Of a stretch of DNA of 64,000 nucleotides, positions 3,441-63,128 are shown in pieces. Source of the stretch: Centruroides vittatus (Eukaryota); contig NW_027122708.1 in the NCBI RefSeq assembly GCF_030686945.1, positions 5,866,248-5,930,247 on the forward strand, given 5' to 3'. The stretch's first letter is position 1, and every line of letters starts with the position of its first letter. Below the pieces are notes generated by a model, which worked only from the letters and a program-made list of their open reading frames with translations, had not been told where the DNA came from and did no database searches. The position numbers and the translations under genes are program-made.

Positions 3441-3504
3441 GTAAGTCTAAAATACTTCATATTTTATCTAACTTGATCATTTTTTTAAAAATATTTTTTT
3501 TCAG

Positions 3505-14535: not shown

Positions 14536-17500
14536 ATAAAAGCTTTTTTTTTTGGTTCTGAGTGCATTGTTAACTATATCCCGATGTGTAGTGTAGTTTA
14601 ATATTAAATAGCATTAGAATGTTGATTGCATTCCTTAAACAACAGTACATTTCTTTGTTTACAGTTAATTATAATTAATAGGACAAGCCAAAGTTATATA
14701 AGAAATTTTTCTAAATTAAATAAAATTATAATCATTCATATTAAAAACAATGTACTATAAAGAAATGCAACAATTATGATATATATTTAATTAAAGGAAA
14801 CAATGTTATTTAAATCATTAATTTCATATTTAAACAAATGATTTACCTATTCATTTGTATATCTTATAAATATTAATAAATTAATTTTGCTACACAGCTA
14901 ACAAATTCAATTCAAATATTAATAAATATGAACATAAATAAATGTTGATTGTTGTATTTGAATAATTAAACAAACACAAATATAAATATTTAACCAAATT
15001 ATTTAATTTTAAATATATGAAATATATATTTTATGTAATGAATATAATGATTGTAATTAACAAAAACATTTTAAATATATACAGTATATTTATATCATCA
15101 TTGAATATTCTTTTACTTATTTCACAATCATTTATATTTTGTTGCACTTAATCTAGTTTCAAACTTTCTGACTCTCTTCCACATAATTCAATTGTGAAGG
15201 ACAGGATCTGAACACTCATCAAAATTTACCCCAAAAATTGTTGGAATAAAAAAAAAATCCCCAAAACCCCAAAAAAGACAAAATATTTTCATTTAAAGTT
15301 ACTCTATGACAAAAACTGATAAACAACATAAGTCCTAAGATTAACCATCACGGTTTGGTATCAGATTTTGGCATCAAATTAAATGTTGATGTCAACCTCT
15401 CTTTTAGCCCAAGTTGGTCTCAAATTTTCCCTGGAAACTGGTACAAGACCAATGTGAAAGTGTAGACAGGAATTGGGACCAACAAAATGAAAATGAGCAA
15501 AGGGCTGAACAGATATAAACCCATTTCTCAAGAACACAAGGTTCCTTCTCAAAAAGTTCTTTTTCAACAAAAGTTCTTGTTCCTCTCAATCCATTCCATG
15601 TTTTTTTCTCTTTTAGGTCTCTTACAGACCAGGTGTCTTTCACTCAGGTTCTTAGCATCTTTGTGCAGTTAACAACATACCAGTCTCTCTCTTGACCAGC
15701 AGATAAGACCATCATCCTTTTTCCTCAATCTTTGTAACTCCTAATACTATCTTATATTCTCATCAGGTTTTAAATTCAACAGAACAGCTAACATATAAAT
15801 GCATAAATTCTAGATTGCATAAATGAACTAATAAATATCCAAGAAAAATAGAATAATCACTCAAATTATACTCCTACTGGTTTTTTTTATTTTCTTTTAG
15901 TGAATAAAAACAGTAGAAGATTGTGTTTCTAATAAGAGCATGGACATGTAACATGTAGAACCTCAATGTCACTAAATTCACAGCAAACAAAATGCAACAA
16001 AGCTCAAAACACCTCTTTAACCTGGGACACAAAGAAATCAGAATTCTTCATGTACTAGGACAGTGTTTTAGTGACTTTCATTTTGAGTGACATTAATTGT
16101 CTATCAAAGACTTAAAACCTAAATTCTTTAATTTAGAAGCTTGTAACATGGATGACCATACTGAGGACTCTAAGAACTCTCTCTCTCCAATAATCAGTGT
16201 ATGTTTACAAGAATACCTTGCCTCAGTGTCCATACCACTCTACATACACCATTTCACCCTTCGGTGTCATCCTAAACAGTTGATACTCTCACTCTCTCTC
16301 AAGAAAGTTTCTCTGTAGTTTGATATTGGGACCATGAACAGCTTCATAGCAGTCCTCGCACAATGCTGGTTATATCATCATCACATATACAAAATTAAAA
16401 TAAGTCTTCCTGAAACATGTCTTGTTGTAAACTTAAAAAATTAAATAATTTATCAAACATTTTTCATTCCAAATTATTAGCAGTTACTCAGAGGAATTTT
16501 AAACAAAGTAAAATTTCAAGAATAATGCATTTAAAACATTTTTGTTATCTTCATGTGAATATCATCTTTTAACTTGTAACATGAGAGTAAAAATTATTAA
16601 TAATAATTAGTATTAGTTTTTATACCTTTGCAGAATTTTATTTTCCAATTTTTCTTTCCAGGTAGGAAGTGCTTGTTTTCTTTGAACTAAATAAGTTGTT
16701 GGTCTTTTTGATTTCAGTAAATCAGATTCAAGCAATGACTGCAATTCTTGAATTGCTTGATAAGCAGCAAAAAATCTCAAAGGAAACTGTTTACTTTTTA
16801 TCACTGCTTTCTAAAATAAAAAAAAAAAAGTATTTACTTAGTTCTACTGAAACTGCAATTATTAAAAATGACTTATTAACCACTTTTCCAACTGTATAAC
16901 ATTTATTCTTGTGTACCAAGTTACACTCTAAGCAAATATTCAGCTCTGTTCAGGGCCCACTTCAGACTTACGTCAAAGAAAACTGAAAGCAAACCGAAAA
17001 CTTTATGTTTAAGGTTCCTACTTAAATCTTTGTTTTAAATTCCATGACTTTCCCTGACTTCCCCTGATCAACTTTGTACAAACTCCCTGACCCTCACATC
17101 CCTTACAGTAAGGCACATTGACAAAATAAAACAGCATTTAACTTACTATGCACATATGCTATTGCTTCTCCAACTTTTTAATTAGTTATTTTTTTCTAAT
17201 TAACAGTTATATATTTCTTATAATTGCTGAATTATTAAAACTGAGAAAAAAAACATTTTATTAAATTAGTTTGTCATGTTATTAATCCACAACCATAAAT
17301 CTACATGGCTTTGAAAAAAAAACCATTATTTATTATTCATTAACAAATCCTGTATAATACATGTACAAAAATATATATTTATTAAATGTATCCCTTAATA
17401 AGTTTCCTGAACTTTATAAAATATTAATAAACTGGAAAAAAAATCAGAAATCGTTTTGTTATGCATTCAAAATTCTTAAAATGAAAAATGAAATAAATAA

Positions 17501-18004
17501 TTTTAATTTAAATATTATCATTTTTTCTATCAGTTCATTAACACCTGACCTCAAATTGAGAGTGTAAATGGTAATTGTTAAAGATTTGAAGATTTCAAAA
17601 ATTTTTTTATTAATGTTAGTTTATTAAGTGAATTACAGACTTTTTTCTCAAATTCTTAGTACTGCATAATTAACACAGTTAAACAGTATTTCAAAGTCCA
17701 CACCGATTAGACATAATACTAGATGTATACCCTCTCAGATAGTATTAAAGGCTTTTTTATAATGCAAGTACTTCAACAATATAAAATCACTATCATCAGG
17801 GTAATGAATGTTTCAAATTTAGAACAGAATGTCACCAAGTACAGTATGATATCCTCAGCATTTAAATATTCTAAACATTTCAATTTCACAGCAGAATTTG
17901 AGGCTCATGAGTATGAGAAAAAATGAAATTTGAAATAAAAGGCAAACAAGAACAAAAAGGTGCAACGGAATTTTCAAAAGATTTTTTTATGAAATAAGTT
18001 CATG

Positions 18005-18365
18005 GTGCGTTATAACATGAACAACTAGGGTTATGTGGCATCATGGTTGAAAAATTTAAAAAGTGCAATCTACAAGTTAGGAAGCTCAAGTGTGAATGTA
18101 TTGCACAAGCACAAAACGGAAGTGAGGAGGGTTTCCCAAATAAATAATGTCCTACAATTAGTGCAACCCTGAGGAGAGTGGTTTGAGTGCACAAGAGATT
18201 GAAATTAGACTGCACGACTTTTCTGATCAGTTCTATAGAATATCTACATTTTACAATATCCTTCCTCATTTCCATGTTGTGCCCATGCAAGACATCTCAC
18301 ATTTGAGCTTCCTAACTTGTAGATTGCACTTTTTAAATTTTTCAACCATGTTGTCACACTATCCT
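18005..18365. repeat. Diverged inverted repeat (arms about 18040-18100 and 18295-18350) with a 200-bp spacer; MITE-like
   Basis: ggttgaaaaatttaaaaagtgcaatctacaagttaggaagctcaagtgtga is the reverse complement of tcacatttgagcttcctaacttgtagattgcactttttaaatttttcaacc. Confidence 0.6.
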
Positions 18366-18709
18366 AGTCATGCCATAAAAAAATGTTTTGAGAGTTCCAT
18401 TGTACCTTTTGTTTTTGTTTGCCTCTTATTTCAAACTTTGTTCTTTCTTGTACCCATTAGTCTTGAATTCCACTGTGAAATTTAAATATTTAGAATATTT
18501 AAATGTTGAGGATATTGTACTGCATGTAATGACATTCTGTTCCAAATTCAAAACATTCATTAGCCTGATGATGATAATTTTGTATCGTTGAAAGTACTTG
18601 TGTTATAAAAAAGATTTAAAAGATATTAAAGACTTTTTTATAACACAAGTACTTTCAATGATCTAACAGTGTATGCATCTAGTATTATAATTAATACAAC
18701 TACAGTAGA

Positions 18710-19025
18710 GCATCGATTATCTGACTTAATTGGGGACTGGGTTGGTCGGATAACTGAAAAGTCGGATAACCGAAAAGTATGAAAAAATACATTATTAGTA
18801 TAGTGCATTAGGCCTGGTTTAAATACTAGCCTCTCTTTCATGGTCGAGCCAGTGCTGCCAGCTAAAACATGCAAAAATTTAACAAAAATAATATTAAGTA
18901 GCCAAGACATAACCAAATATTGTAGCTCCACATCACTAGCGGACATTTGAATTTGCCTACTAGAACGCGGTTGGTTAACCGAGAAGTCAGTTAATCGGGG
19001 GTCGGATAATCGATGCTCTACTGTA
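18710..19025. mobile_element. MITE of the TACAGTAGAG-terminus family (diverged copy), with TA flanks
   Basis: It starts tacagtagagcatcgattatc… and ends …gataatcgatgctctactgta. Internal sequence is shared with copies at 39042 and 62684 (ggggactgggttggtcggataac…cggataa). Confidence 0.7.
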
Positions 19026-19189
19026 TTTTAAAATCTAAAAGTGACAATTGATTTTGCTGTATGTTATATTTGGGACTTAGTATGATCCCCATTGTTCTGC
19101 AATGCTCTCCTCCCTGTTGCATTTTATAATTATTCTTCATATAAACAATCAATATTAAATAATATATGCCTACTGGAGCTAAATAAACT

Positions 19190-19656
19190 ATAAATGATAT
19201 AAATAACACCTTTTTAACAATCCAGCAAATGTTTAATTCGTTAAAAAAAAACATTTTCGACCAATTTCAGTGGTCTTCATCACTGATTCTAAAGTTAAAA
19301 GAATAAAGCATTCGAAATTTACAAAAAACAAAAATAAACAAAAATAAACTCAAATGTGGTTGCGCAGATCAACGGAAATGCACTTATGGGTTAATCAAAA
19401 TTATAAAAATAAATATAAAAAAAAATACAACAACTAAATATAAATAAATAATAGTGCCATCCAAGAAGATACATCTATTAACTTGTATTAATATTAAAGG
19501 ACTGCCAGGCAGTGGATAATCCATCAGCATCCTTGTGATTGATGCATTCTGTGGTTACATGTGCCTTGTGTGGTTACATGTGCCATTTTTTCAAGATGCT
19601 TTTTTCAAATTAAACATTTGCTGGATTGTTAAAAAGGTGTTATTTATATCATTTAT
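19190..19656. repeat. Inverted repeat pair (50-bp arms 19190-19240 and 19606-19656); MITE-like
   Basis: The 50-bp segment aattaaacatttgctggattgttaaaaaggtgttatttatatcatttata is present in both orientations. Confidence 0.6.
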
Positions 19657-21854
19657 AACAATCAATATTAGATTTTTGTCATTAACTGAAATTTTTGAGC
19701 CTTATAAACATTTGTTCTGAAGTCATTATCATAAACGTCATAAATAAATAATGCATTTTTGAATGTCAAAGTCTGTTAATTACTGTCTATGCTAAAAATA
19801 AAAACCATTCATGATGCTAACTTCAATTTTATTTCTATTAATCAACATATTGCAACAAGTTTACAATTGTACAGTACATGCTAGTCTACGACGATGATAA
19901 GTTCTAAAATTAAAGTGTTATTTTAATCTAAAATATTTTAATGTTAACTTATCAGTTTAGTGTTACATGGCAAATTGTATGTTAGGCCTATTTAATTATA
20001 TGTACAATTTAATTTGAATTTTCCAAACTATAATAATAATTAATGGGTTTGTAAATTACGGTTTTATTTTGTGCACAATAATTTTTGGGGAAATTTTGTG
20101 TACATTTGGTAGAATTTTGGATTCTGAAAATATTCTGCACCCCTTTTCATAAGTTGCATTGTACCACAGTATTTCTTGCTTCCTGCATATGGGTACACTT
20201 AGTCATTGTATAGTAGTGTATTGTGAGCAAAAATATCAACAAGGCAGACAAGGAGGCAATTCCCCGACTTTTTGACAATTTTTGACAAATTTCCTGACTT
20301 TTCCTGATTTTCCAGGTGCATAGGAATGTATGTTTCTGTATGTTTCAAATTGCAGAATGTTTTAAATATGTTGTTTTATGTCACTGCTCTAACAGACTTT
20401 ATTTTTTGATATTAAAGTTGGTTACAAAAATTCTCATCATCAATCCCTCAGAAGTTATAACAATTCATACAAAATAAATATGGTAAAAAATATTTTATAA
20501 ATATTATATTCTAACAGTCAGTTGTAGCCTCATATAAAATTTGCCATTTTATGTTTTTCCCCTAATTCATGTGATAATGGGTGGATCCCACAGCTTGTGT
20601 TCTTGCAGTTCATGTGATTTTCCTTGATGGTAGTCTTAAAAATTTCCCAAGTTTCTAGTGTTCCGAGTTTTTGCACATTAAAACTTGTTTAATTAATTTT
20701 GCTTCCTCCCAGTTGACTGTTATACCAGGATCATTTGTGTACTGGGCTAGTACTGTCGATAGTTTGTTGTGCTCAGTTCTCAGCTTGCTCTTGGAATTTC
20801 CTTGATGTAAACCTACAGCGTGCCCTACAAAAACATTTGCTTCAAGTATAATTCAGTACACAAGAATAAATGTTATACAGCTGGAAAAGTGTGCAAGATT
20901 GTTTGTAAGTCATTTTTTACAAAGTATTTAAAATTTTAAAAACTTTTTACAAATAAGTTTTAAATCATTACATTTTAAATTTATGAAATTTAACAATTAT
21001 TTGTTCTTTAGTAGAAATTCTTATATACATAAATTAGACTATTGTAGTCATTTATAGTGTATTGTGATCAATTTATATCATATATATGCAAATTATATTG
21101 TCTAAAAATGTATAATTTGCAAATTTATTACAGTAAAGCATGTGAAAGTGTAAGATATGCTGTAAAATTAATAACCACACAGGTCATACTTAGATTGCTG
21201 GAAGTTGTCATTGTACCTAAATATGGCAAAAGCACTGCACTGTATGCATGATACATAGATAACATAATAATATGGAGGAAACCCAACATCCAACACTTCA
21301 TTAAAAATATTAATTCAAACCTGTAGGGCTTAAAAATAGAATTAGAACAAGAAAATGCTGAGGATGCACATTTCCTGGACATCTTAATCATGCTGAAAGA
21401 ATGGGCTATCACCATATATTTACAGGAAACCAACATATAATCTGCTGTTTGTCATGGGAGGCCCATGGTATATAATCAGCTACAAGCTAGTAACATTTAG
21501 GGCTCTAATAAAAAGAGCCCACATGCACTGTAAGAATGTGCAAGACAGAATATGAGAGCTAGAATACATTAGAGCATTTAGAAGGCAATTTAGAGTCAAA
21601 TATACAACCTTAGCAACTATGATCAACAAGTGCAAGTGTTAAAGAGGTACAATACAAAAGATGAAAAAGCAGGCAGGGTACACAATAGTAGAACATATGG
21701 CATCCTTCTGTAACAAACAGGAAAATAGGAAAAACTACAACAAAGAATAGAATTACTTTTAAAAGGAATTCCACTATTCACAGGCTACTGCATAACAACA
21801 AATTTTAATTTATATTAAGTTATATTCTTGTTTTACTATATTTTTATATATAAA

Positions 21855-22665
21855 TTATATACAAAAAAATTAAATACCTTCTAAAACCGATAACCAGTGC
21901 GAACTATTTTTCGAAATGGTGAACATTTTCACTGCCCCTCCTGGGCTCTTCCTCAGGCCAATTCTGGATTTGATAATCGAACAGCATAAATAAATGGAAC
22001 GTGTTGAGAAGCCTATTGAGAAATGGAAAAGACGCACTTAACCCGTATAGGCTTCCGGGAGTGTATAGTATCCCTCTACAGGACGACAGATGGCAGAAAC
22101 AATTACTGTACATAGGGTCCACTAAACGCCCACTATGCACTAGAATAAAGGAGCATAAATCCGACATTACCCGCCATAAATACACAACGGCATTGTCAAC
22201 GTATGCAGCAAACCCGGATATAACACAGAATTTTAATGAGGCAAAGGTGATCCGCACCACCCAACATCAAGAACATCTGAGAACTCTGGAGGAGATTGAA
22301 ATTTATAAAGCCGATCGCACAACAACATGTATTAATTTCAAAGAAGAAAGGAATCTCTCCACTGCTTGGCAGTTTTTATTGGAAGAAAGGTCGTAAATCA
22401 GTTGACGTCACGCGTATTTATCATAGGAGGCGCACATCGTTTTCCCAAACGGAATAAAAGGAAATTTAAATATTTGGAACGGCACGCGGTTGCCCAACGT
22501 ACTCGATCGTTTAAATTACGGAACACATTCCATTTATTTATGCTGTTCGATTATCAAATCCAGAATTGGCCTGAGGAAGAGCCCAGGAGGGGCAGTGAAA
22601 ACGTTCGCCATTTCGAAAAATAGTTCACACCAGTTATCGGTTTTAGAAGGTATTTAATTTTTTTG
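21855..22665 (+). mobile_element. PLE copy c: a GIY-YIG-domain fragment (22001..22396: LPGVYSIPLQDDRWQKQLLYIGSTKRPLCTRIKEH…) bracketed by 150-bp inverted repeats (21855-22005 and 22521-22665)
   Basis: The GIY-YIG motifs GVYxIPL…YIGxT.R.L..R..EH are present. The flanking arms are reverse complements of each other. The two flanking ORFs end in the identical peptide NTFHLFMLFDYQIQNWPEEEPRRGSENV. Confidence 0.7.
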
Positions 22666-22879
22666 TTTATACAACCCGGTGTGGGAGAAGTGTTAATAAA
22701 TTATATATATATATAAAAATATATATAATGTTAAAAGCAGAAGTCCAGCACATACATTTACAAGCTTTTTGTTGTTCTAAAAACATTAATATTCAAATTA
22801 ACAGTGGCATGTGGTGACATTTGATAATAGGGAAGCTATGTTTCCATAAAAATTTTAAACAAATACTGGAAATGACAAA

Positions 22880-22972
22880 AATAAACAATAAAGAAAAAAT
22901 ATATTTCTCTTTGCAGACAATACATACATAATGTGTCTTTACACTGTATGTCCTTTCTCACGCAGTTGAGGG
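22880..22972. repeat. Left arm of a palindrome split by the LINE insertion (reverse complement of 28045..28137)
   Basis: aataaagaaaaaatatatttctctttgcagacaatacatacataatgtgtctttacactgtatgtcctttctcacgcagttgaggg is the exact reverse complement of ccctcaactgcgtgag…ctgcaaagagaaatatattttttctttatt. Confidence 0.85.
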
Positions 22973-23508
22973 ATACTTTTTTTTTTTACTTTGTAAAACT
23001 CTTTATTTAAAAGCCCTAGTACCGCTAGGCATCACTGGGGTGGAAAACAAAGTATTACACTAGTTACATTGATGTCTTATCAACGATGATAAAGAAGTAA
23101 TTATGTACAGATATACACCAGTGGGGAAGCCACAGTTGAGTGCACTGCATAAACAACTTATACATTGATGTCTTATCGATGAGCAAAGTATTATAATGTA
23201 TAGTTTATACAGCAAATAACATTTACAGCAACAATCACAGCACCAACATGTCCTACAGTGCTGTCTTATCACAGAATATAAACAGAATATAAATGTACAA
23301 ATATACAGCACAATGAAACTACATTAACATTGACAACATAATCAAAGCTGATGGTGATGTCTTAACAGGGATGATTACTCACAGCACAATAACACACAGG
23401 GGTAATGACAACAATTCAATGCATACAATTAGTAAACTAGATTAAGAATATCTTCAAGACACAACACCACTGCACTTGGCAATGGAAGCTGTCTTCGCAG
23501 CACCCTAC

Positions 23509-26500
23509 TTAATTAACTGTAGTCCTTCTGAAGTAAGAGGTGACAAGGTCCCTGAAAGCCTGAAAAAGGTTGTTGTCTTGTAACAACACATGTAAGTCCT
23601 GAGGCCAGTTCCCACTGGACGGCAGCAGGGAGAGAATGGCGCTTCGTTTGTCGTCCAACATCGGGCACTGCAGCAGATAGTGCCTGGCACCATCTGGAAT
23701 ATTGCATAGTTCACAATTCTGTTCAGTTGTTTTGTTGAACCTGAAGAGATAACTATTAAATTTACCGTGCCCGGTATAAAACTGTGTTGTTCTATGTTCA
23801 ATATAATGATGATTACTAGCTGAGACTGTGGGGAAAAAATCCCTTGTAATGCTGTTGGTCCGCAGGTTCCATGTACCCTGCCATAACTCAGTCGCATTCT
23901 CCTTTAGGCTGGAAATTATGTAGTTTTGGGGAGTTGCTGTATAGGTAGGTGTGCCGCTGGAGACAGTTGCGGTGCGGGCAAGCTCGTCCGCTCTCTCATT
24001 TCCAAGGACACCAGCGTGCCCTCTGACCCACACCACCGAAAACCTATTGATGTTTTTGGTCATTTCCCGGAGAATTTCGTTGACTATGGGATGGCCCCAG
24101 TTAAAGTTGTGGATAGCCTGAAGTGATGAACTGGAATCTGTGAACAGGTTGATGTTGGTATTACTTAGCTCCTCGTTACTCCATTTGACTGCTTTCAGGA
24201 TTGCCCAAAGTTCCGCCTGAAACGCAGAGCAAGTATTGCCCAGTCTATCAGAGAAATTATACACTTCCAGGTTGCCATGATACACTACAAACGCACATCC
24301 AACCCCATCATTGTTCTTCGATCCATCAGTAAAGACACTGAAGGACTGATCTGGCCAGGGTTGACCTCCAATGTATGGCCATTCATAGGGAGGGACAGAA
24401 GGGGTACAACTATTTGTACTCTCGATATTGTCAAATATTACTCCGTTTAAAAGGATGTTTTGGCCCTTCCTCATTCTCCATCTTTGTACCGCAATTTCCA
24501 AATGTAATGTCACTGGGAGTTTGCTAGCAATAACTTGCAGGGCAGCAGTTGGAGCCGTCGAATAGGCTCTGCAAATACGCAGCAGGGCCCTCCTCTGGGC
24601 ACTCTGTAATTTTCTGTCAATATGGACTTTCCCTAACCCATCTGCCCAAGCAGGTGCAGCATAGCCAATAATGGGCAGGAACACTGAGTCATAAATAATA
24701 CTCATTATTTCAGGACACAATCCCCACTTTGACTTTGCTACCTTTGACAGTGCATTGAATATCTTGTTTGTCCTATTACATATATATTTGATATGGGGGA
24801 TCCAGCAAAGCTTGTGGCTAATGACAATGCCCAAGTACTTTAGTGATGTTACAACTTTTACACTACTATGCCCCATACGTATAGTAGGTACTCTTCGATA
24901 TAAATGTGGGGCTCTTGGCTTTGTAAAAATAATTCCCTTTGTCTTGTTTGAGTTAAATTCTAGTTTGTTCGTTTCGCCCCAGTCCTTTATTTTTGCCAGA
25001 ATGGAATTAGCCTTTACTTCCATTTCTGCCCGAGAGAAAGCAGCCACCAGTACCATTACGTCATCTGCGTACGCCACTGTCCAGTCATTTCCAAATTTTT
25101 CATTTAAGAATCCGTTGAATAGCAGGTTCCACAAAAATGGGCCCAATACTGAGCCCTGTGGGCAGCCACGAGAAATGTGTCTTGTGTATGTCCTTGAGCC
25201 AACGCAGAGAGTAGATGTGCGGTCCTGCAGGTAACTCCGTAATATATTATATATATAAGCTGGGCACTTACTTTGTTGAAGTCTGAGGAGTACCATAGGC
25301 CACCAGGCAGAGTTAAAAGCTCCCGCAATATCCAAACTTAGTCCTAACACATAGGGGTGGGTAGTTAGCAGTTCTTTAACTTTAGTAGTTACTGATAGAA
25401 TAGCGTCTGTAGTATCATAACCATTGCGGAATCCGTATTGTTGCTCATGAAGATATTTATTTTTATCAATAAACCAAACCGTCCTGTTCAAAATCAACCT
25501 CTCCAAAACTTTTCCCATAATGGGCAACAGAGAAATGTTCCTGTAATCATGTGGTGAAGCAACAGGCGTGTCTCTGACTTTAGGAATGAGTACAAGTCTT
25601 GCCCTCTTCCAGGCCGTTGGAAAGATATTGTACTGAAGGCAATAATTATAGATAACCAGAAAAATTTTTGGTCGATGTTCCCATATTTGCTTTACAATAT
25701 CTGCCGAAATTCCATCGAGGCCTGGGGCCTTACGTGGTGCTAGTCTTTTAATTGCCTCGTTAACTTCCAGTGCCGTAAAGGGTGGTGGACAAGGGCCCTG
25801 AAGAAAAGTTGCAGTTTGATTCCTTATGATTTGCTGTGTTGTGCTGTCCTCTGAAACAATGTCCTCAGGGCGCAGGGTATGTAGTAAAAGATCAATGGTA
25901 TCTTCCATGTTTGCCTCTTTGCCATCTATTCCGCAAAGTCCTGTGAGACAAGTAGCAGTCTTCAGTTTGGAAGCACAACTCTTGTAAATGAATCCCCATG
26001 GATCTGTAGACGCCGACGAGCAAAATTCTCTCCATGATAGAATTTTAGCTTTCTTGATAGCCTGTTTGTAGATGGCTTGGTATTCCAAATAGCGTGATTT
26101 TAAGCTGTCTCTTTCCTCACTCCTACAGTTTTGGTAATTTTTTCTATGTTGTCTGTTAATTTTCCTCATTTCAGCCAGTTCTTCGTTCCACCAGGGGACA
26201 CCATTTTTAGAAGGTCTCCTAAGCGTGAAGCACTCATCACAGGCTTCAGCGATTAAATTAATTTGAGTGTCAATATATTTCACTGCCGAGTCCCTGTCCA
26301 TTATCTCGGGCAAAAGGTCAATACCGTCATCCAAATATCGAAAGAAATGGTCCCAGTCTGCATTCTTAGTATTGTAAACCTTGTTGCTATTAAAAGGTAT
26401 TTTCCCAGTTGTACTGTAGATTTGGAATGTAATGGAATTATGATCAGAGAGAGTATCTGCTATGACTTGCCAATCATGGATTCTGTTCAGAATATCGGGC

Positions 26501-27078
26501 GAAGAACAGGTGATATCGATCCATGACTTCCCATTTGGTCCCTCAAAAGTAGGTATAGATTCCGGATCATTGACACTAATAAGGTTGTTACCGGCCAAGA
26601 AATCCTCCACAGCCTCACCCCTTTGATCCAAGTTCTCGCCCCCCCATGTGGGTGAGTGGGCATTAAAGTCCCCAGCGATAACTAGGTAGCTGTCTTTAAA
26701 GTATTCCTTAATATTCTGTAAAATTTTCAATTCATTGTTGATATCTTTCTTTTTTGGTGCATACACGCTAACGACGATCAGACTGTGATCATCCAATTGT
26801 GTTTCTATACATACTATGTTTTCAGTGGTAAACTGCCGATGATGAAACACGGCGACACTGTTATTTGGAATAACGATAGCAGCCCACGGGGAATTCACAG
26901 AGTCCTGAAGGACAAGATGTCTGTGTGGAATGCAGGCAACCTTGTTATTAATACAATAAGGTTCCTGTAGAAGAACAATATCGTAGTTGGTAATATCGAC
27001 GCTGAGTGAAGAAATAGCACTTATAGATCTTTGTAAATTAAGCTGCAGAAATTTAAATCCATTGTAACTACTCCCCAT
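23509..27078 (-). CDS. LINE ORF2 polyprotein (APE endonuclease, reverse transcriptase, RNase H); intact 1189-aa ORF
   Basis: See the LINE entry; there are no internal stops. Confidence 0.85.
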   Translation of the reverse strand: MGSSYNGFKFLQLNLQRSISAISSLSVDITNYDIVLLQEPYCINNKVACIPHRHLVLQDSVNSPWAAIVIPNNSVAVFHHRQFTTENIVCIETQLDDHSLIVVSVYAPKKKDINNELKILQNIKEYFKDSYLVIAGDFNAHSPTWGGENLDQRGEAVEDFLAGNNLISVNDPESIPTFEGPNGKSWIDITCSSPDILNRIHDWQVIADTLSDHNSITFQIYSTTGKIPFNSNKVYNTKNADWDHFFRYLDDGIDLLPEIMDRDSAVKYIDTQINLIAEACDECFTLRRPSKNGVPWWNEELAEMRKINRQHRKNYQNCRSEERDSLKSRYLEYQAIYKQAIKKAKILSWREFCSSASTDPWGFIYKSCASKLKTATCLTGLCGIDGKEANMEDTIDLLLHTLRPEDIVSEDSTTQQIIRNQTATFLQGPCPPPFTALEVNEAIKRLAPRKAPGLDGISADIVKQIWEHRPKIFLVIYNYCLQYNIFPTAWKRARLVLIPKVRDTPVASPHDYRNISLLPIMGKVLERLILNRTVWFIDKNKYLHEQQYGFRNGYDTTDAILSVTTKVKELLTTHPYVLGLSLDIAGAFNSAWWPMVLLRLQQSKCPAYIYNILRSYLQDRTSTLCVGSRTYTRHISRGCPQGSVLGPFLWNLLFNGFLNEKFGNDWTVAYADDVMVLVAAFSRAEMEVKANSILAKIKDWGETNKLEFNSNKTKGIIFTKPRAPHLYRRVPTIRMGHSSVKVVTSLKYLGIVISHKLCWIPHIKYICNRTNKIFNALSKVAKSKWGLCPEIMSIIYDSVFLPIIGYAAPAWADGLGKVHIDRKLQSAQRRALLRICRAYSTAPTAALQVIASKLPVTLHLEIAVQRWRMRKGQNILLNGVIFDNIESTNSCTPSVPPYEWPYIGGQPWPDQSFSVFTDGSKNNDGVGCAFVVYHGNLEVYNFSDRLGNTCSAFQAELWAILKAVKWSNEELSNTNINLFTDSSSSLQAIHNFNWGHPIVNEILREMTKNINRFSVVWVRGHAGVLGNERADELARTATVSSGTPTYTATPQNYIISSLKENATELWQGTWNLRTNSITRDFFPTVSASNHHYIEHRTTQFYTGHGKFNSYLFRFNKTTEQNCELCNIPDGARHYLLQCPMLDDKRSAILSLLPSSGNWPQDLHVLLQDNNLFQAFRDLVTSYFRRTTVN

Positions 27079-28022
27079 AGTCAGTTCTAGACATTATTAG
27101 GTTCCTGATGCGTCGATATGATGGACAACACCTATCTAATGCATTATGTGCGTTGTTTCTCTCCTTTTGTATAATGCAGTTATGACATTTCGGGCTATGG
27201 TTTCTTTCAGAGCAATCTCTATATCTGTGTTTGCCCGCGCAATGGCTGCAGGTTTCCTCTAACTCCTTGCAGGTTTTGCTGGTATGGCCGAACCGGCAGC
27301 ATCTATAACACTGTATGATTGAATAGTGTTCTTCTGTTGGGCATCTTGCCCATTCTATATTAATCTTCTTTAGTGTGGTAAATATTTTTAGTATTTCAGG
27401 TGAGACATCAGCTACCCAGTTGACTGTCATTCTTACCACCACCAAACGCGAAGCACAGCCCAAGCTCCTCGATAAATCTTTCTCTATTGATATTTGACTG
27501 AATCATTTCATTCTGATCAAAAACACAGTTTGCTATTTCAGCTTTGTCCAAGTGTTTCGACACCTGTCTAATCACCACTTTCGGACTCCTTTTGTTTGGT
27601 ATGATTGTTTTGAGGGTGGGGGCCTTTACCTTAAGCGCATTTTCAAGAACTTGTAATTCACTCCCTTTACTGACATCAATGGCTATCCCACCTCTATCAA
27701 TTCTCCTGAAGCCACTGATTCCCACCCTTAACTGTATAGGATCGATTTTTTCTTTTATTATACTTTTTATGTCCTCCGACCCAGTGTTACTGTCCTTTGG
27801 ATAAACTAGTAGTGTGCTACGCAGATTATTTGATTTTGGTTTAGGAATGTTTACCCCCCCCCCTTTGACAATATCACTATACAGTGTCTTCTGTTCTGTC
27901 CCACAAACAATATTACTAAATTCCTTACATGTCTGTTTGATGGCACTATTCCACGGCAGAGTCGACCTTTTATTTGAGGCTTCTCGTCCGCCTTCAAATG
28001 TAAGCCTGAAATAAAAGGTCAA
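27068..28022 (-). CDS. LINE ORF1 (gag-like, 3x CCHC), interrupted by one frameshift
   Basis: The ORFs 27408..28022 and 27068..27463 overlap in different frames. Zinc knuckles are in the 3' part. Confidence 0.65.
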
Positions 28023-28044
28023 CTCCGCCGTGGAATTGTCTTAG

Positions 28045-28137
28045 CCCTCAACTGCGTGAGAAAGGACATACAGTGTAAAGACACATTATGTATGTATTGT
28101 CTGCAAAGAGAAATATATTTTTTCTTTATTGTATCAC
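28045..28137. repeat. Right arm of the palindrome split by the LINE (reverse complement of 22880..22972)
   Basis: See the left arm. Confidence 0.85.
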
Positions 28138-29079
28138 ATCATCCTGGCTTATTTTTAAAAATTAAAAAAATAAATAAATAAATAAATAAATGGTTTATTT
28201 ATTTTAATTCTAAAATAGATAATTGACACGAAATAGATGTAAAAACTTGTTTTTATTATTTTTTCTGAACTAACTCTATTCGGCAATTTTTTCTGCAAAG
28301 TCGTTAATTACTTTATTATAAAAATCGCTTGTCATTGATTCCATCAAAGTATGTAAAAGCCACATAATGCGATTATAATAAAATATTAATTTTAAGTAAT
28401 TCAAAAGTATGTTAAAATATGAAAATAATCGCACAATATGTATTTATAATTTTAGAAAATACAAGGGAAGTGGCACTTCCACAGCTTCCATGAACAACAC
28501 ATCACTGCAAATTAAGTAATTCTACAATACATTATGGCTTTTTTTTGTTTGTTTTAAATTGTAAATTTCTTGAAGAAGGTCAATTAAGAAGACTGAAAAT
28601 GTTAGCAAAATAAACTTACTGCACTGTAAAGGTAGTTGTACTGCAGTATGCAGTAAAACCTCCAACTTAAGTAAGGCTTTTCCATCTTAGACAGTCTTCC
28701 AACTTTTACCCAAAGTTGAAAATAAAAGGAAATGGTTTGAGTTCATGAAAGTCATATATGATGAATGAAAGAAAATTTTACAATTCCTGAAAGAAGCTGA
28801 GTTTTCAAATTATTTCCTGAATTGAAGAAAAATCATTGAAGAAAGGGTACAGAAGCTCAGAATGCTTATTTTGAGATAAAATATAAGTAAATTTATTTAA
28901 AATTACAAGTTTTGATTTGAAAGTTTCAGAAAAGGATTTTATCCTTTGACCGTATCTTGAAGATTTGATCATAATCATCAAAATTATTTTAATCCTTGAT
29001 AATATCTTAGAAAAATTTTGAAAACATACTCCAGAATCTTTATAAAAAAGAATGCTTTCTTCTAAATTGCAATACTTAC

Positions 29080-29189
29080 CTCAGAAGAAATAGTGTTTAT
29101 TACTTGTTGATGATGCTTTTTTGAAATCCCAGTAACTATTAAATTTCTTAAATTTCTAAGCATTGCCATGTATGGTAATTTCTTTTGAT
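29080..29189 (-). CDS. Ro60: Ro60-like exon (D)QKKLPYMAMLRNLRNLIVTGISKKHHQQVINTISSE, TROVE domain
   Basis: A ttttataatag acceptor and a gtaagt donor flank the exon. It matches Ro60 …[27 protein letters not shown]. Confidence 0.7.
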
Positions 29190-29268
29190 CTATTATAAAA
29201 GAAATGAAAGTTAATAATGATAAAAATAATTTATTTAAAATTTTATAATAAATATATGCAATGTACAC

Positions 29269-29426
29269 CTAACAAATTTTGCCATACAGAAGCTTTGTTT
29301 CCTTTGGTAGACAATTTTGTTTCCCAAGTTTCAGGGACTGGTAATTTCATTCTTTTTCCTGCCTTAGTTTCATCCCAAATTCCAGGAAGATTGCTCTTAT
29401 TGAAAGATTCCAAATCAGAAGGGTAC
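29269..29426 (-). CDS. Ro60: Ro60-like exon …[57 protein letters not shown] domain
   Basis: A catttgacag acceptor precedes the exon. The GTGTAC donor is weak, but phase joins …VWQNLL-D-QKKLPYMAMLRNL, mirroring Ro60 [21 protein letters not shown]. Confidence 0.6.
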
Positions 29427-29829
29427 CTGTCAAATGTAATATATAAAAATAAAAATTTGTTATCCAACTATAAATCTTTAAAGTTATAAACTTAAATATA
29501 AATTTGTAATTAATATGACAAAATTTAAATACAATAAGTACTTAATAAGTATTATTCTTTATCTAATTGCTTATTGCACATCTAGTAAAAATATACAAAA
29601 TTTTAATATTTGTTAAGGTTTATTACTTAGAAACAAATACATAAATGTAAATTAACTATACAATTTATCAGAAAATTAAATTTGAGAAAATTATTTAGCA
29701 AAACTTATCAATTTTATATGTAATAAATTATTTTTTGCCTTCTTGATTTAATTTAACACACTTTCTTATGTAATGTAATAATAATAAGTTTAAACAGCTA
29801 ATATTCAATAAGATAGCAATAAGTCATAC

Positions 29830-29938
29830 TTTTTTCCTATGAGACACATAACATATTCCACAGGTTTTGTAATATGAAGCAATCGTATTAATCTTTTTAA
29901 TGTGTATGACTGCTTGTTTATATTAATCTCAGCTTCAT
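29830..29938 (-). CDS. Ro60: Ro60-like exon (D)EAEININKQSYTLKRLIRLLHITKPVEYVMCLIGKK
   Basis: A tgttccag acceptor and a gtatga donor flank the exon. Phase is 1 in and 2 out, linking the 32158..32233 and 29269..29426 exons. It is collinear with Ro60 …[32 protein letters not shown], and the combined 35-aa spacing is identical. Confidence 0.55.
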
Positions 29939-31500
29939 CTGGAACAATTTTGGTTTGAAGTAAAACCTATTATGAAAATTTTAAATTTACTTATACTTTT
30001 ATTATTACTTTATAAAAATTTAAATATATAAAAGCTCAATTTTTTTTTATCTAATATGCAAAATTTTTTTCTAATAAATAAAATAAAAATTTTAACTTAT
30101 GAAAAACTTTCATTTTAGAAAATACAAATCATTTTAAATATTTCTGTTTTAATATTACATTATGAACCATGGTGGCCAAACTGCAGCTTGTCTGTCTAAA
30201 ATTCTGATTTTTATTACTATAGATTACTAATATTTAAAATGTCCAGAATTATATTCAAGATTTTTTTTATTAAATTACATCAAGATTTGCATATTAAAAA
30301 AATAAACTGCAAAAGAATGTCAAATCATAAGAAATATTCAATGTTTTGGTAATTTGCAGCATTTGTTAAATGAAAATTAACTATACATACATTACATTAC
30401 CATATTTACTCACATATAAGATGAGGTTTTTATTCATTTATCACAGCTTCAAATTCCTAGGTTGTCCTATACGCACGAGCAAAGATTCTTAGCATTTTTG
30501 CAAATAATTTTTGTAAACCGTGTATTTGCATTTTTTACCGGATACTTACCCTCTTGTATTTAAAAACATAAGTATTTTATCTGGGTCATTTGAATAGTTC
30601 TTGTATATTGTCAGGAGTAAAGATGAATTGGATTGAATTCCAGATTGAAATTCCAAAATCACATGGGAACCCGATATAAGTTTTAATCTATTCCCACATG
30701 AAAACAGATGATTATTCGGAAATCAGAATTCAGAGAAACTCATAAGTGTAATCGATGGAGAGTGGATTCAACTCTCAAGAATTGGCAAAAAAGGTTCCTT
30801 ATTGCCCAGCTTTATGTGAAGAAATTATGTTGATTTTACAAGAATTTTCCTTATAGTTTAAAATGCCAGTAATTTTTGCGAGACAATGTGTGCATTTACA
30901 TTCATTTGATATTTTATTTGTGATTAAATGAAATTAGAAATGTAGAAAAGTTTTCCATAATGGAACTACAGTACAAAGGATATCAATATTGATATGAAGG
31001 TCACCCCCTAAATGAAATTCCTGCATCCACCCGAGTTATTACACATTCTAAACAAATATTATACAACAGTAGATTATTTGTTTCATTATATTTACATTTA
31101 TCTTATTTCAAAATTCAGTTTTAAATATAAACTTAACTAGCTGTTACCCGTGGCTTCGCTCATGCAGATCTTGCAAGCAAACCCTATTTACATTCAGTAT
31201 TTCAACAACCATAGTAATTGTTATTTAACACCTACCGCTGAGAATGATGAGAATTGCTGAGAATCAAACAAACTGTTTTAATTTGATAAATTTTCTGGAA
31301 CATTTACAATCATTCTATAATCAAACCAATATGTAAAAAGAAATTTGAATTTAAAACGGTTCAAATATTTGGTTAAAAACTTGAAATATATAAAAAATAT
31401 TTATAACAATGTCTGAAATGTTATCAATTTAAAATACCCCTAAGTACTCAATGAAGACTAAACATAATTAAAAACAAAAAATCGCATCTAAAATAGTACT

Positions 31501-31700
31501 GTAGAAGCCATTCTTTAGGTTAAGACTTAATGCTCTCCCTCTCCCCCGCAGGGGAATTGTGAAAAATCCCTTCTTAGTGTGCATTTTCATGACGTACCCT
31601 AACTGTGTACCAAATTTCACCTCTAGGTTTTGGAACTTTCTAGAAAAAAACTGGAACATTCTCATTGAAGCGTCACACATTTTCAAAGTCAACCACTTTC
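31501..31700 (-). repeat. Copy A (single unit) of a roughly 165-bp interspersed/tandem repeat family
   Basis: It shares …gtacactaagaagggatttttc(a/g)(c/a)aattccc…gcag(g/t)gga…taaagaa…ctattttagatgcg(a/g)tttttt with 55241-55480, in inverted orientation. Confidence 0.6.
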
Positions 31701-31853
31701 AACCCCCATATCTCCCACACCCTTACAGCTATCGAGACACAACCACCATAGTGCACGATGGGAGACTTGGGGCTACTACCACACACAAACACCATTCATG
31801 TGTGATGTGTAGTTTTGGCTGCAGAGTGAAATATAGGCACAAACATGTCCATT

Positions 31854-31855
<2 letters not shown>

Positions 31856-31884
<29 letters not shown>
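31856..31884. repeat. (TA)n microsatellite
   Basis: Direct reading. Confidence 0.95.
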
Positions 31885-31887
<3 letters not shown>

Positions 31888-32157
31888 CTAACTATTACAG
31901 CAAGTAAAAAACTATATGCAAAATAATAACAAATATCTAAAACACAGTAAAATTATAATATATTTTGATTATATATACTAAGATAAAATACAAACCTTTT
32001 CATTTTTATTTATTGGTTTCTTTCGTTTTCTTTTACTTTTATCACGATTATATTTTGCTATTAAAATAATAAAATAATTTAGTATCATTATACATAAATT
32101 TAAATTATTTATGAACATATAAAATAATATTAATGAAAAAAATATATATAAAATCAC

Positions 32158-32233
32158 CTAATTGATATTCATCAAATTTTGTAAAAGTATCAATCATAAC
32201 TCTTCTTAAAGAAGCAGGAAGAACTGGTGAATC
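32158..32233 (-). CDS. Ro60: Ro60-like exon DSPVLPASLRRVMIDTFTKFDEYQL
   Basis: A taattag acceptor and a gtgatt donor flank the exon. It matches Ro60 …[21 protein letters not shown]. Confidence 0.55.
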
Positions 32234-32525
32234 CTAATTAATATATTTAATTTTAATAAATTTTAACATGACAATTAATGCATTTTGTTATATTTAGAAA
32301 ATACATTTTGAACAGATTTATTATAATTTTACAAAACAGATTTTATAAAAGAAATAAGTTAATTTTGTTTACTTAACTAAATATATTTCTCCTTAGCATT
32401 ATTTCCCCTTTTATATTCAACTACTCAAAACTGGATGTTAATAAATAAAGTGCACGTTCTTACTTAATTGTACTGTGAGTGAGTACACGAAAATTCGAAT
32501 TTCCTTTCTTTTCTGACTTACAAAA

Positions 32526-32729
32526 TTATATTTCATAAATTGCCCACAAAGCATTTGAAAGGTTTTCCGCATCCCAATGATTGATGCAGTGTGACCTTTC
32601 GTGTGGTTTATATATTCCTAATTTTTTCATAAATCCAATGTTGTGTAAGTTAAAAGTGGGCCTAATAATTTTGGCTTGATCCCATTGAATGTACACATCA
32701 TTGTTCTCTGAATAAGCTGCTAGTACCAT
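32526..32729 (-). mobile_element. PLE copy d: degenerate C-terminal GIY-YIG fragment
   Basis: DVYIQWDQAKIIRPTFNLHNIGFMKKLGIYKPHERSHCINHWDAENLSNALW is collinear with copy a DVDVHWDKASIIRATTNKQMLKHLEKLEIYKAHVNTGCINHRDADGLSTAWK. Confidence 0.6.
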
Positions 32730-33595
32730 GTTACTGAGGTTTTTTCTAGCTGTGTATTAATGTTCTTTGACCCTCTGCTGTAAATTACAAAGAGTAGCCA
32801 CTATGTAAACTAGCTTTGAATTGAAACAATGGTCATTGACCATTGGAGTAAATCCCAGTGGGGAAGTCCTAATCATGTGGTTTTTATCATCATTCCTCAG
32901 CATCTTAAAAATCATTGGATTAAATTGAAATACTATATTCCTGACTTTGTTATTTTGAATTTGTAATTAAGAATTTGAAAAGTTTGTAACTGAAATTGAT
33001 CAATGAAATCTGATTAAGAACGTTATTATTTCAATAAATTTTTAGCTGGATTTACCAAGGTTTAGTTTATTGGTTTATTTGAATCTATCCAGTTTTTCCA
33101 CTTCCTTGATTATTAACAGATCTGTAAACAATCATAAATTCCAACAAATCCTTTAATAACTAACATTTGACTGTATTCAAAAGCCTTACATCAAATTACA
33201 TTATTTTGAATATATTAAAACATCTATGAAGACATTGTGAGCATCTTTGATATTTGAAATTGGTTAATTTTCTAAAATCAAGCTATTAGTAACATTCAAA
33301 AAAATTTTGATAAAACTAACTTTATCACTAACAAAACAGACTACTATTAAAAGTCTGTTGTTTACTTGCTTAAAAAATCTTAAATTTTGAATAAACATTC
33401 TTGTCTTTGTAAATTCTGTAATACAGTATGTTGAAATAAAGATTATAAATGACAAACTATTTTGTGCCCATATATACAACCACTATATGACCACTTGATT
33501 TCCCCCAAGAACAGTCACAAATAAGAAGTTTTATTGTATGTTGTTCTTTTTAACTTATATTAGTCTTGAAAATTTTAAAACTTCTTAATTATTAC

Positions 33596-33772
33596 CTTTT
33601 CTAATAATGTCTTATATATTTCTGCAACCGCCATCCAATCAGTAGGTAAACATATTGATTCTTTAAAATACTTTTTTAAAAATGGTCGGCAATTCTTGTG
33701 AAAGGAAGCATAAGCCAACAGGAAGTTAGCTGTTGTTCTTATATTTAGTTCTTTCCTAGTGTAAAGAGCAAC
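33596..33772 (-). CDS. Ro60: Ro60-like exon VALYTRKELNIRTTANFLLAYASFHKNCRPFLKKYFKESICLPTDWMAVAEIYKTLLEK (59 codons)
   Basis: A tttgtttag acceptor and a gtaata donor flank the exon. SICLPTDWMAVAEIYK matches Ro60 EVCRIPTHLFTFIQFKK. The length from the upstream exon to here matches Ro60 within 1 residue. Confidence 0.6.
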
Positions 33773-63045: not shown

Positions 63046-63128
63046 GTTAGGTTTAGTTGTAAACATTTCGAAGTATCAAACACAAATTCGTGTTAATAAC
63101 AACCACTTGGCTTTTTTCCACCTTTATT

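What the first reader, a model, noticed from the sequence alone, without database searches (positions are those of the whole stretch)
22880..28137. Full-length LINE inserted at the exact symmetry centre of a roughly 185-bp palindrome, with an inverted rather than direct flanking repeat
The LINE (5' end at about 28044, poly(A) at 22977-22987) is flanked by 93-bp sequences that are exact reverse complements of each other. Target-site duplications of LINEs are direct repeats, so these flanks are not one. The two arms meet, with the LINE removed, at …cgcagttgaggg|ccctcaactgcg…, a perfect palindrome centre. Either the target was a hairpin or cruciform-forming foldback element, or the structure is a palindromic MITE that was hit. 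Endonuclease or target-primed reverse transcription preference for hairpin tips would be notable.
Basis: seen in the sequence. Interest (0 to 1): 0.55.

Follow-up and report, generated by a model that had tools for sequence, protein, structure and literature searches.

The report
LINE flanked by inverted target copy
A 5-kb LINE retrotransposon in a scorpion gene intron has the same 88-bp host sequence on both sides in opposite orientation, most likely a rare copying slip made during insertion (already seen for human L1) and not evidence that the element targets DNA hairpins.

Summary
A perfect 88-bp inverted repeat (22885-22972 / 28045-28132), not 93 bp, brackets a 5.07-kb LINE on the minus strand. 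ORF2 is intact (APE endonuclease, RT, RNase H). ORF1 has CCHC knuckles. An AATAAA signal and an A11 tail mark the 3' end. No direct target-site duplication exists at any junction.

The host is a Centruroides-like scorpion. The LINE lies in sense orientation in a ~12-kb intron of a TEP1-like (TROVE) gene. The arm sequence occurs nowhere else in the window or in 25 kb of C. sculpturatus DNA, and no direct repeat flanks the arms as a MITE insertion would leave.

Best explanation (about 0.6): the flank next to the poly(A) is original. After reverse transcription the cDNA 3' end folded back on that flank, 88 nt were copied, and the end was joined to the other side of the break. Human L1 studies report inverted duplications of 52-220 bp at 0.3-1% of new insertions.

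The rival, a pre-existing near-spacerless palindrome hit at its centre (about 0.22), is not excluded. The decisive empty site could not be fetched.

This is a new example of a known by-product, of modest interest.

The parts
22885..22972 (.). Left arm, 88 bp, next to the LINE poly(A). Proposed to be the original target flank.
   Evidence: It is 88/88 reverse-complementary to 28045-28132 (I1). It occurs nowhere else in the window. GC is 33%, close to the left flank at 34%.
22973..22976 (.). ATAC between the left arm and the T11 run. It may be target bases at the priming nick, filler, or a 4-nt loop under the palindrome reading.
   Evidence: Read directly from the sequence. It is not mirrored on the right side, apart from a possible TA.
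22977..28044 (-). LINE (non-LTR retrotransposon), 5,068 bp, with APE, RT and RNase H domains.
   Evidence: ORFs and Pfam domains. The closest proteins are arthropod LINE ORF2s at about 32% identity.
22977..22987 (-). A11 tail of the LINE (T11 on the plus strand).
   Evidence: A relative, L002, also ends in an A17 tail about 590 nt after its ORF2 stop.
23003..23008 (-). AATAAA polyadenylation signal, 15 nt upstream of the A11. It shows that the A-run is the true 3' end, so the arm is flank and not LINE.
   Evidence: Sequence in LINE orientation.
23065..23378 (-). Four 93-96-bp tandem repeats in the 3' UTR, with the core TGTCTTATC.
   Evidence: the repeat finder family D1.
23509..27078 (-). ORF2, 1189 aa, intact.
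   Evidence: Exo_endo_phos_2 3.4e-25, RVT_1 2.6e-31, RNase_H 1.2e-17.
27068..28022 (-). ORF1, gag-like with three CCHC-type knuckles. It is in two frames with one frameshift near 27408-27463 and has no ATG.
   Evidence: It aligns to the ORF1 of relative L002 with E values of 2e-10 and 4e-13.
27945..28039 (-). Hairpin at the LINE 5' terminus: 38-nt arms, 89% complementary, 19-nt loop.
   Evidence: the repeat finder I2. The sub-threshold Rfam mir-617 hit (37.6 bits against a gathering score of 80) only reflects the hairpin shape.
28045..28132 (.). Right arm, 88 bp, abutting the LINE 5' end. Proposed to be the inverted copy made during insertion.
   Evidence: The flank beyond it (28133 onward) has 23% GC and no similarity to the left flank.
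29071..29467 (-). Host exons upstream of the intron (context). They cover TROVE-domain profile positions 244-297 and 296-337 of a TEP1-like gene.
   Evidence: Pfam TROVE 1.6e-22 and 2.6e-10.
16616..16810 (-). Host exon downstream of the intron (context). It covers TROVE profile positions 335-378.
   Evidence: Pfam TROVE 4.4e-05.

Best explanation
I read this as a single LINE insertion whose 5' junction was resolved aberrantly. The result is an inverted duplication of 88 bp of the target flank, not a direct target-site duplication.

Proposed course of events:
1. The LINE endonuclease nicked the window's plus strand just right of ...GTTGAGGGATAC (22976).
2. That 3' end primed reverse transcription on the poly(A) of the LINE RNA. 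This is shown by the orientation, the AATAAA signal and the A11 tail.
3. The break became double-stranded, and the 5'-ended strand of the primer-side end was resected. This left 22885-22976 single-stranded (inferred).
4. When the cDNA reached the RNA 5' end (...GTCTTAG), its 3' end folded back onto that single-stranded flank beside the priming site.
5. The LINE RT or a host polymerase extended it for 88 nt, producing CCCTCAAC...TTATTGT (28045-28132) (inferred).
6. The extended end then came off and was joined, without homology, to the other side of the break (ATCACATC..., 28133) (inferred).

On this reading the pre-insertion sequence was ...ACAAT...GTTGAGGG ATAC|ATCACATC..., with one copy of the arm. 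The palindrome symmetry follows from how the copy was made and says nothing about the target.
For: 1. The arms are flank, not element. They lie outside an A11 tail that is preceded by AATAAA at 15 nt, and a related LINE also ends in poly(A).
2. The arms are 88/88 identical. A duplication made at insertion of a young element (ORF2 intact) should look like this. The MITE-like inverted repeats in the same window are 81-98% identical.
3. No direct TSD of 5 bp or more occurs at the LINE junctions, so the insertion was not resolved canonically.
4. The arm sequence is unique in the 64-kb window and in 25 kb of C. sculpturatus, and no direct repeat flanks the two arms. The arms therefore do not look like a transposed palindromic element.
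5. There is precedent of the right kind and size.
   - Nam et al. 2023 (PMC10191854) found a 'short foldback inversion (inverted duplication)' at the 5' head of 0.3% of about 1,200 somatic L1 insertions. They attributed it to about 52-220 bp of extra DNA synthesis.
   - Mendez-Dorantes et al. 2024 (PMC11702581) report three insertions with inverted genomic DNA at the reciprocal end, and inverted duplications at target sites. Their model is resection followed by self-annealing of the cDNA 3' end.
6. Arm GC (33%) matches the left flank (34%) and not the right flank (23%). This agrees weakly with the left arm being the original.
Against: - The ancestral empty site was not seen, so single-copy status of the arm before insertion is inferred, not shown.
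- The published human cases are described only briefly in the text available to me, and the figures are not held. They may place the inverted copy next to its source on the same side of the L1, not across it.
- Microhomology at the proposed fold-back point is at most 2 nt (TA), with a mismatched terminal G.
- The priming site ...GGGATAC is not T-rich.
- An 88-92-nt resection or stagger is longer than ordinary LINE target-site duplications.
- MITE-like inverted repeats are very common in this window. A palindromic target is therefore not far-fetched.
Confidence: 0.6

Rival explanations
1. Pre-existing palindrome. The intron already held a perfect, nearly spacerless inverted repeat (2 x 88 bp, with a loop of at most 4 nt, ATAC), such as a foldback element or hairpin MITE. 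The LINE then entered exactly at its centre. This could have happened in three ways: the endonuclease or TPRT machinery prefers extruded hairpin tips; the palindrome broke at its centre (centre-break of cruciforms, from my own knowledge) and LINE cDNA patched the break; or chance.
For: With the LINE removed, the arms plus ATAC fold as a perfect 88-bp hairpin of -103.7 kcal/mol with DNA parameters. The window has more than a dozen MITE-like inverted repeats, two of them with loops of 5-7 nt. A blunt break at a hairpin tip would explain the absence of a TSD at the LINE junctions.
Against: - No direct repeat flanks the palindrome, unlike the TA duplication around the MITE at 42086-42428.
- No second copy of the arm exists in 64 kb plus 25 kb.
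- The short-loop palindromes in the window are only 78-81% complementary, and none is perfect.
- Long perfect spacerless palindromes are unstable (my own knowledge).
- My rough estimate is that random landing within +/-2 bp of the centre of such an element happens in about 1 in 10,000 insertions. Documented fold-back outcomes occur at 0.3-1%.
- APE-type LINE endonucleases nick duplex DNA. No hairpin-tip preference for them came up in the two literature searches run on palindromic or hairpin targets.
Confidence: 0.22
2. Rearrangement after insertion. The LINE inserted normally and a later local event created the inverted 88-bp copy and removed the original TSD. Candidates are an inversion with a staggered break, or replication template switching (FoSTeS/MMBIR).
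For: Small inverted duplications of a few hundred bp, independent of mobile elements, are the most common inversion class in human long-read data (277 events, median 284 bp; PMC12350158). Other inverted duplications of TE-related DNA lie nearby, at 21856-22005 / 22522-22671.
Against: Both breakpoints would have to fall exactly at the two ends of the LINE, within 0-4 bp. That is expected if the LINE's own insertion made them and is a coincidence otherwise.
Confidence: 0.1
3. Assembly artefact. The inverted arm at the LINE 5' junction is a mis-join or consensus error.
For: This could not be tested, because no reads are available. Complex inverted TE structures are known to disturb assemblies (PMC8557442).
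Against: A junction of the LINE 5' end to an inverted 88-bp flank and then to unrelated unique DNA is not produced by repeat collapse. Missed-adapter palindromic reads give kb-scale arms meeting at one point, which is a different pattern. Both arms are embedded in unique, non-repetitive flanks.
Confidence: 0.05

Closest known systems
Short foldback inversion (inverted duplication) at the 5' head of human somatic L1 insertions (Nam et al. 2023, Nature, PMC10191854, 'process C')
   Same: It is a retrotransposon inserted by TPRT, with poly(A) at one junction and an extra inverted copy of nearby target DNA at the 5' junction. The extra synthesis is about 52-220 bp, and 88 bp here falls in that range. 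It is rare (0.3%).
   Different: - Those events are somatic, in human cells, and involve L1. This one is germline-fixed in a scorpion assembly and involves a distantly related LINE with RNase H.
[quoted passage not shown] Here the source is the flank beside the poly(A), so the two copies bracket the element.
- The exact topology of the human cases could not be checked, because the figures are not held.
Inversion of the reciprocal-end 3' flap, inverted duplications and cDNA self-annealing hairpins in induced L1 retrotransposition (Mendez-Dorantes et al. 2024, bioRxiv, PMC11702581)
   Same: The model is resection of the ORF2p-made break, fold-back of the cDNA 3' end or inversion of the flap that would have become the TSD, and then end joining. 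It gives insertions with inverted target DNA in 3 of about 334 insertions.
   Different: - Normal L1 flaps are 12-18 nt. Here 88 nt is inverted.
- In their hairpin model, ligation and replication produce large foldback chromosomes. Here the end was rejoined locally, giving a simple insertion.
Penelope-like element insertions with an inverted 5'-truncated copy (Craig et al. 2021, PMC8557442)
   Same: It is a retroelement bracketed by inverted repeats. An example sits in this same window, at 36305-36539 / 38546-38782 around a PLE.
   Different: In PLEs the arms are the element's own 3' end and the enzyme is a GIY-YIG endonuclease. Here the arms lie outside the poly(A), are not element sequence, and the enzyme is an APE-type endonuclease.
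Twin priming (Ostertag and Kazazian 2001)
   Same: It is an aberration at the 5' part of a TPRT insertion that involves the second DNA end.
   Different: Twin priming inverts part of the LINE itself and keeps a direct TSD. Here the LINE is collinear and the flank is inverted.
LINE nested in a palindromic MITE or foldback element
   Same: After insertion, inverted repeats would flank the LINE.
   Different: It would need an exact centre hit, a TSD around the MITE and other family copies. None of these was found.

Membership tests
APE-type non-LTR retrotransposon (LINE; I/R1/LOA-like group with RNase H) | ORF2 with an N-terminal apurinic/apyrimidinic-like endonuclease and a reverse transcriptase | tested here: met
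   Exo_endo_phos_2 3.4e-25 (residues 101-216) and RVT_1 2.6e-31 (residues 509-752).
APE-type non-LTR retrotransposon (LINE; I/R1/LOA-like group with RNase H) | C-terminal RNase H domain (present in the I, LOA, R1 and Tad groups) | tested here: met
   RNase_H 1.2e-17, residues 911-1037. The exact clade was not assigned, because no reference LINE library was available.
APE-type non-LTR retrotransposon (LINE; I/R1/LOA-like group with RNase H) | ORF1 with CCHC zinc knuckles | tested here: met
   CYRCCRFGHTSKTC and two further Cys/His motifs were read in the translation. ORF1 is homologous to the ORF1 of relative L002. Pfam gave no hit.
APE-type non-LTR retrotransposon (LINE; I/R1/LOA-like group with RNase H) | 3' poly(A) tail and no terminal repeats belonging to the element | tested here: met
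   AATAAA, then 15 nt, then A11. The inverted arms lie outside this tail.
APE-type non-LTR retrotransposon (LINE; I/R1/LOA-like group with RNase H) | Direct target-site duplication flanking the insertion (the canonical TPRT outcome) | tested here: not met
   No direct repeat of 5 bp or more at any junction pair. This is the anomaly. It bears on how this copy was resolved, not on what the element is.
TPRT-associated inverted duplication or foldback of target DNA | Inverted copy of adjacent target DNA joined to the 5' end of the retrotransposed sequence | tested here: met
   28045-28132 is the reverse complement of 22885-22972 and abuts the LINE 5' end.
TPRT-associated inverted duplication or foldback of target DNA | Length of extra synthesis in the tens to low hundreds of bp (52-220 bp in Nam et al.) | tested here: met
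   88 bp, compared with the range quoted.
TPRT-associated inverted duplication or foldback of target DNA | The duplicated segment is single-copy at the empty (pre-insertion) site | not testable with these tools
   - The orthologous C. sculpturatus locus L001 is collinear only up to window position 5339.
- The representative search gave no protein above 70% identity.
- Scans of metagenome and genome contigs gave 0 hits.
Palindromic MITE or foldback element hit by a LINE | Target-site duplication flanking the palindrome's outer ends | tested here: not met
   The left flank ends in ...AAAAATAA and the right flank begins with ATCACATC. No shared 2-8-mer lies at the boundary.
Palindromic MITE or foldback element hit by a LINE | Other copies of the element in the genome | tested here: inconclusive
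   None were found in the 64-kb window or the 25 kb of L001. The rest of the genome was not available.
Penelope-like element with inverted pseudo-LTR | Arms are the element's own 3' end, and the element has a GIY-YIG endonuclease | tested here: not met
   The arms lie outside the poly(A). ORF2 has an APE endonuclease, not GIY-YIG. No hammerhead ribozyme was found.
Twin-primed LINE insertion | 5' part of the element inverted relative to the 3' part, with a direct TSD | tested here: not met
   ORF1 and ORF2 are collinear on the minus strand. There is no direct TSD.

The most novel reading that the evidence does not exclude
This LINE family's integration machinery may recognise extruded DNA hairpins or cruciforms and insert at their tips. 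Alternatively, scorpion palindromes may break at their centres and be routinely patched by LINE cDNA. In either case a perfect 176-180-bp palindrome was the true target.
Probability: 0.07. Interest if true: 0.7.

Novelty: new member of a known kind. Interest (0 to 1): 0.3.

Why it matters
If the fold-back reading is right, this is a germline-fixed arachnid example of a TPRT by-product so far described mainly in human somatic or cultured cells. That would show that resection followed by fold-back synthesis at the cDNA end is a general hazard of LINE integration, and that it can create long perfect inverted repeats, which are potential fragile sites, inside genes.

It also matters for annotation. 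A LINE bracketed by inverted repeats can be mistaken for a DNA transposon, a DIRS or PLE-like element, or a 'palindrome target'.

The insertion lies in sense orientation, with its own AATAAA, inside an intron of a TEP1-like gene, so it could affect that transcript. This was not tested.

Tried and rejected
1. Other copies of the LINE or arm in the window. There are none.
2. Exact look-up of ORF2 in public assemblies. It is not on record.
3. Homologues of ORF2. The best is 32% identical, so the family is absent from the protein collection and no second copy could be examined.
4. Orthologous empty site.
   - The host was identified as close to Centruroides sculpturatus through the chaoptin-like gene (97% amino-acid identity), and KZ494450.1:607322-632427 was fetched as L001.
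   - L001 is collinear with the window only up to position 5339 and has gaps.
   - An attempt to reach the enclosing TEP1-like gene with a TROVE exon found no candidate and used the last protein search.
   - The representative search gave at most 70% identity.
5. Exact scans for the arm in metagenome and prokaryote genome contigs. Both gave 0 hits.
6. Arms as part of the LINE (twin-priming or PLE-like double 3' ends). Rejected, because AATAAA plus A11 lies inside the arms.
7. Arms as a host exon. Rejected, because the TROVE exons map to 29071-29467 and 16616-16810 and the translated arm region has no Pfam hit.
8. Arms as PLE sequence or a hammerhead-bearing pseudo-LTR. There is no Rfam hit and no similarity to the PLE copies in the window.
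9. A similar inverted flank around the related LINE L002. None was found.
10. The Rfam mir-617 hit on the LINE 5' hairpin. It is below the gathering score and was treated as a shape match only.
Full report
OBSERVATION

The inverted repeat is real. Positions 22885-22972 and 28045-28132 are 88/88 reverse-complementary. The repeat finder extends them to 91 nt at 99%. Probes from the arm hit only these two places in 64 kb, where none are expected by chance.

Between the arms lies a LINE on the minus strand.
- ORF2 (23509-27078, 1189 aa) has Exo_endo_phos_2, RVT_1 and RNase_H domains.
- ORF1 is gag-like with CCHC knuckles.
- The 3' UTR holds four ~94-bp tandem repeats.
- An AATAAA lies 15 nt before an A11 tail, which is T11 at 22977-22987 on the plus strand.

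Four bases, ATAC (22973-22976), separate the tail from the left arm. The right arm abuts the LINE 5' end directly.

'Full-length' is only approximately true. ORF1 has no ATG and one frameshift, and it aligns from its residue 74 to residue 123 of a relative's 369-aa ORF1. No direct repeat of 5 bp or more exists at any pair of junctions.

CONTEXT

The window comes from a scorpion very close to Centruroides sculpturatus. A chaoptin-like gene at 14-3476 is 97% identical in protein. The C. sculpturatus locus L001 aligns to window 1-5339 at 94-97% nucleotide identity.

TROVE-domain exons on the minus strand lie at 33578-33772, 29246-29467, 29071-29196 and 16616-16810. They show that the LINE sits, in sense orientation, in a ~12-kb intron of a TEP1-like gene. 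The arms are not exons.

The window is AT-rich and crowded with repeats. There are more than a dozen MITE-like inverted repeats with loops of 5-450 nt and 74-98% arm identity, and several Penelope-like element (PLE) fragments. One PLE (36540-38545) is itself bracketed by ~235-bp inverted repeats. That is the known PLE arrangement, an inverted 5'-truncated copy adjacent to the main copy (PMC8557442), and it is a different thing from the LINE case. In the LINE case the arms lie outside the poly(A) and are not element sequence.

WHAT THE ARMS ARE

Because AATAAA plus A11 lies inside the arms, and a related LINE (L002) also ends in poly(A), the arms are host flank.

The arm sequence is unique in the window and in L001. 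It has no Rfam or Pfam signal. No duplication flanks the pair of arms, whereas the MITE at 42086-42428 shows the expected TA duplication.

The arms therefore do not look like a transposed palindromic element. Their perfect identity is also higher than that of any other long inverted repeat in the window.

MECHANISM

Two readings compete.

(A) The inverted copy was made during insertion. The plus-strand 3' end at ...GAGGGATAC primed reverse transcription. The primer-side end of the break was resected, which exposed 22885-22976 as single-stranded DNA. The finished cDNA 3' end folded back next to the priming site and was extended for 88 nt. The end was then joined to ATCACATC... on the other side. 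The symmetry is then automatic.

This class of outcome is documented for human L1.
- Nam et al. found a short foldback inversion (inverted duplication) at the 5' head of 0.3% of somatic insertions, with 52-220 bp of extra synthesis (PMC10191854).
- Mendez-Dorantes et al. report three insertions with inverted genomic DNA at the reciprocal end, and inverted duplications at target sites. They give a model of resection, cDNA self-annealing and flap inversion (PMC11702581).

(B) A perfect palindrome with a loop of at most 4 nt pre-existed and was hit at its centre. With the LINE removed, the arms plus ATAC fold as a perfect hairpin of -103.7 kcal/mol, and palindromic elements are common in this window.

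Reading B requires an exact centre hit. My rough estimate is about 1 in 10,000 for a random insertion, given that short-loop palindromes occupy about 0.5% of the window and the centre is about 2-3% of such an element. It also requires an unusually perfect and unstable structure with no transposition footprint.

I put A at about 0.6 and B at about 0.22. A later rearrangement whose breakpoints coincide with the LINE ends gets about 0.1, and an assembly artefact about 0.05.

Shown: the structure, the element's identity, the absence of a direct TSD, and the uniqueness of the arm in the available DNA. Inferred: the order of events, the resection, the fold-back synthesis, and which arm is the original.

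WHAT COULD NOT BE DONE

The decisive comparison is the empty site in another Centruroides genome or haplotype, and it was out of reach.
- L001 stops being collinear at window 5339.
- The LINE family is absent from the protein collection, with a best hit of 32%, and the exact ORF2 is not on record.
- The last protein search found no candidate.
- The representative search gave at most 70% identity.
- DNA scans of metagenome and prokaryote collections found nothing.

VERDICT

The 'insertion into a hairpin' reading is the less likely one.

The most economical explanation is a rare, already described by-product of target-primed reverse transcription, seen here as a fixed insertion of an I/R1/LOA-like LINE in a scorpion intron. 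It is a new example of a known kind, with interest of about 0.3. The interest would rise sharply only if other copies of this family also sat at palindrome centres.

Noticed in passing
window 36305-38782: A 5'-truncated Penelope-like element (ORFs 36606-38538, minus strand, with RT and GIY-YIG) is bracketed by ~235-bp inverted repeats (36305-36539 / 38546-38782, 97-98% identical). This fits the known PLE habit of an adjacent inverted 5'-truncated copy. No hammerhead ribozyme was detected.
   Followed up: partly
window 21171-22671: A degraded PLE lies on the plus strand (RT 21171-21651, GIY-YIG 22013-22372). A 150-bp internal segment (21856-22005) is repeated in inverted orientation just past the ORF end (22522-22671, 95%). 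A (TA)n tract follows at 22691-22736. The left arm of the LINE-flanking repeat begins only ~150 bp further on.
   Followed up: partly
window 27945-28039: The first ~100 nt of the LINE form a hairpin with 38-nt arms, 89% complementary, and a 19-nt loop. This might be a family 5'-UTR feature or the relic of an older snap-back at the 5' end. It gave a sub-threshold Rfam hit to mir-617 (37.6 bits against 80).
   Followed up: partly
window 27068-28022 and 27854-27863: LINE ORF1 has no ATG and is split by one frameshift near 27408-27463, while ORF2 is intact. A C10 (G10 in LINE sense) homopolymer sits in the ORF1 N-terminal region and could hide an assembly indel.
   Followed up: no
window 23065-23378; L002 5333-5592: The LINE 3' UTR carries four 93-96-bp tandem repeats with a conserved TGTCTTATC core. 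A relative at about 31% ORF2 identity, from Logan run SRR24919436, also has tandem repeats (143-bp period) in its 3' UTR.
   Followed up: no
window 16616-33772 (minus strand): TROVE-domain exons of a TEP1-like gene lie at 33578-33772, 29246-29467, 29071-29196 and 16616-16810. The LINE, with its own AATAAA, lies in sense orientation in the 12-kb intron between the last two. The exon at 16616-16810 shared no words with any database protein, so it may be missing from the C. sculpturatus gene model.
   Followed up: partly
window 14-3476; L001 1-25106: The chaoptin-like LRR gene (plus strand) lies inside the span of the TEP1-like gene annotated on the opposite strand in C. sculpturatus. This makes it a nested gene pair.
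   Followed up: no
window 42086-42428, 63066-63360, 63410-63620, 34524-34736, 17772-18592: There are many MITE-like hairpin elements, with arms of 69-186 nt, 81-98% identity and loops of 7-449 nt. The element at 42086-42428 has CAGGGTG... termini and TA duplications, as in Tc1/mariner-type MITEs.
   Followed up: partly
L001 15001-15808 and 23400-24422: The C. sculpturatus scaffold contains the same ~0.8-1 kb segment twice, both matching window 3496-5226, and has several N gaps. This is probably an assembly duplication in GCA_000671375.2.
   Followed up: no
window 4700-4933 (minus strand): A short ORF (MTRITMELKKEIVEKYEGGMGVRDLTVAYRI...) looks like the N-terminal helix-turn-helix of a pogo/Tigger-type transposase. 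This was not checked against Pfam.
   Followed up: no
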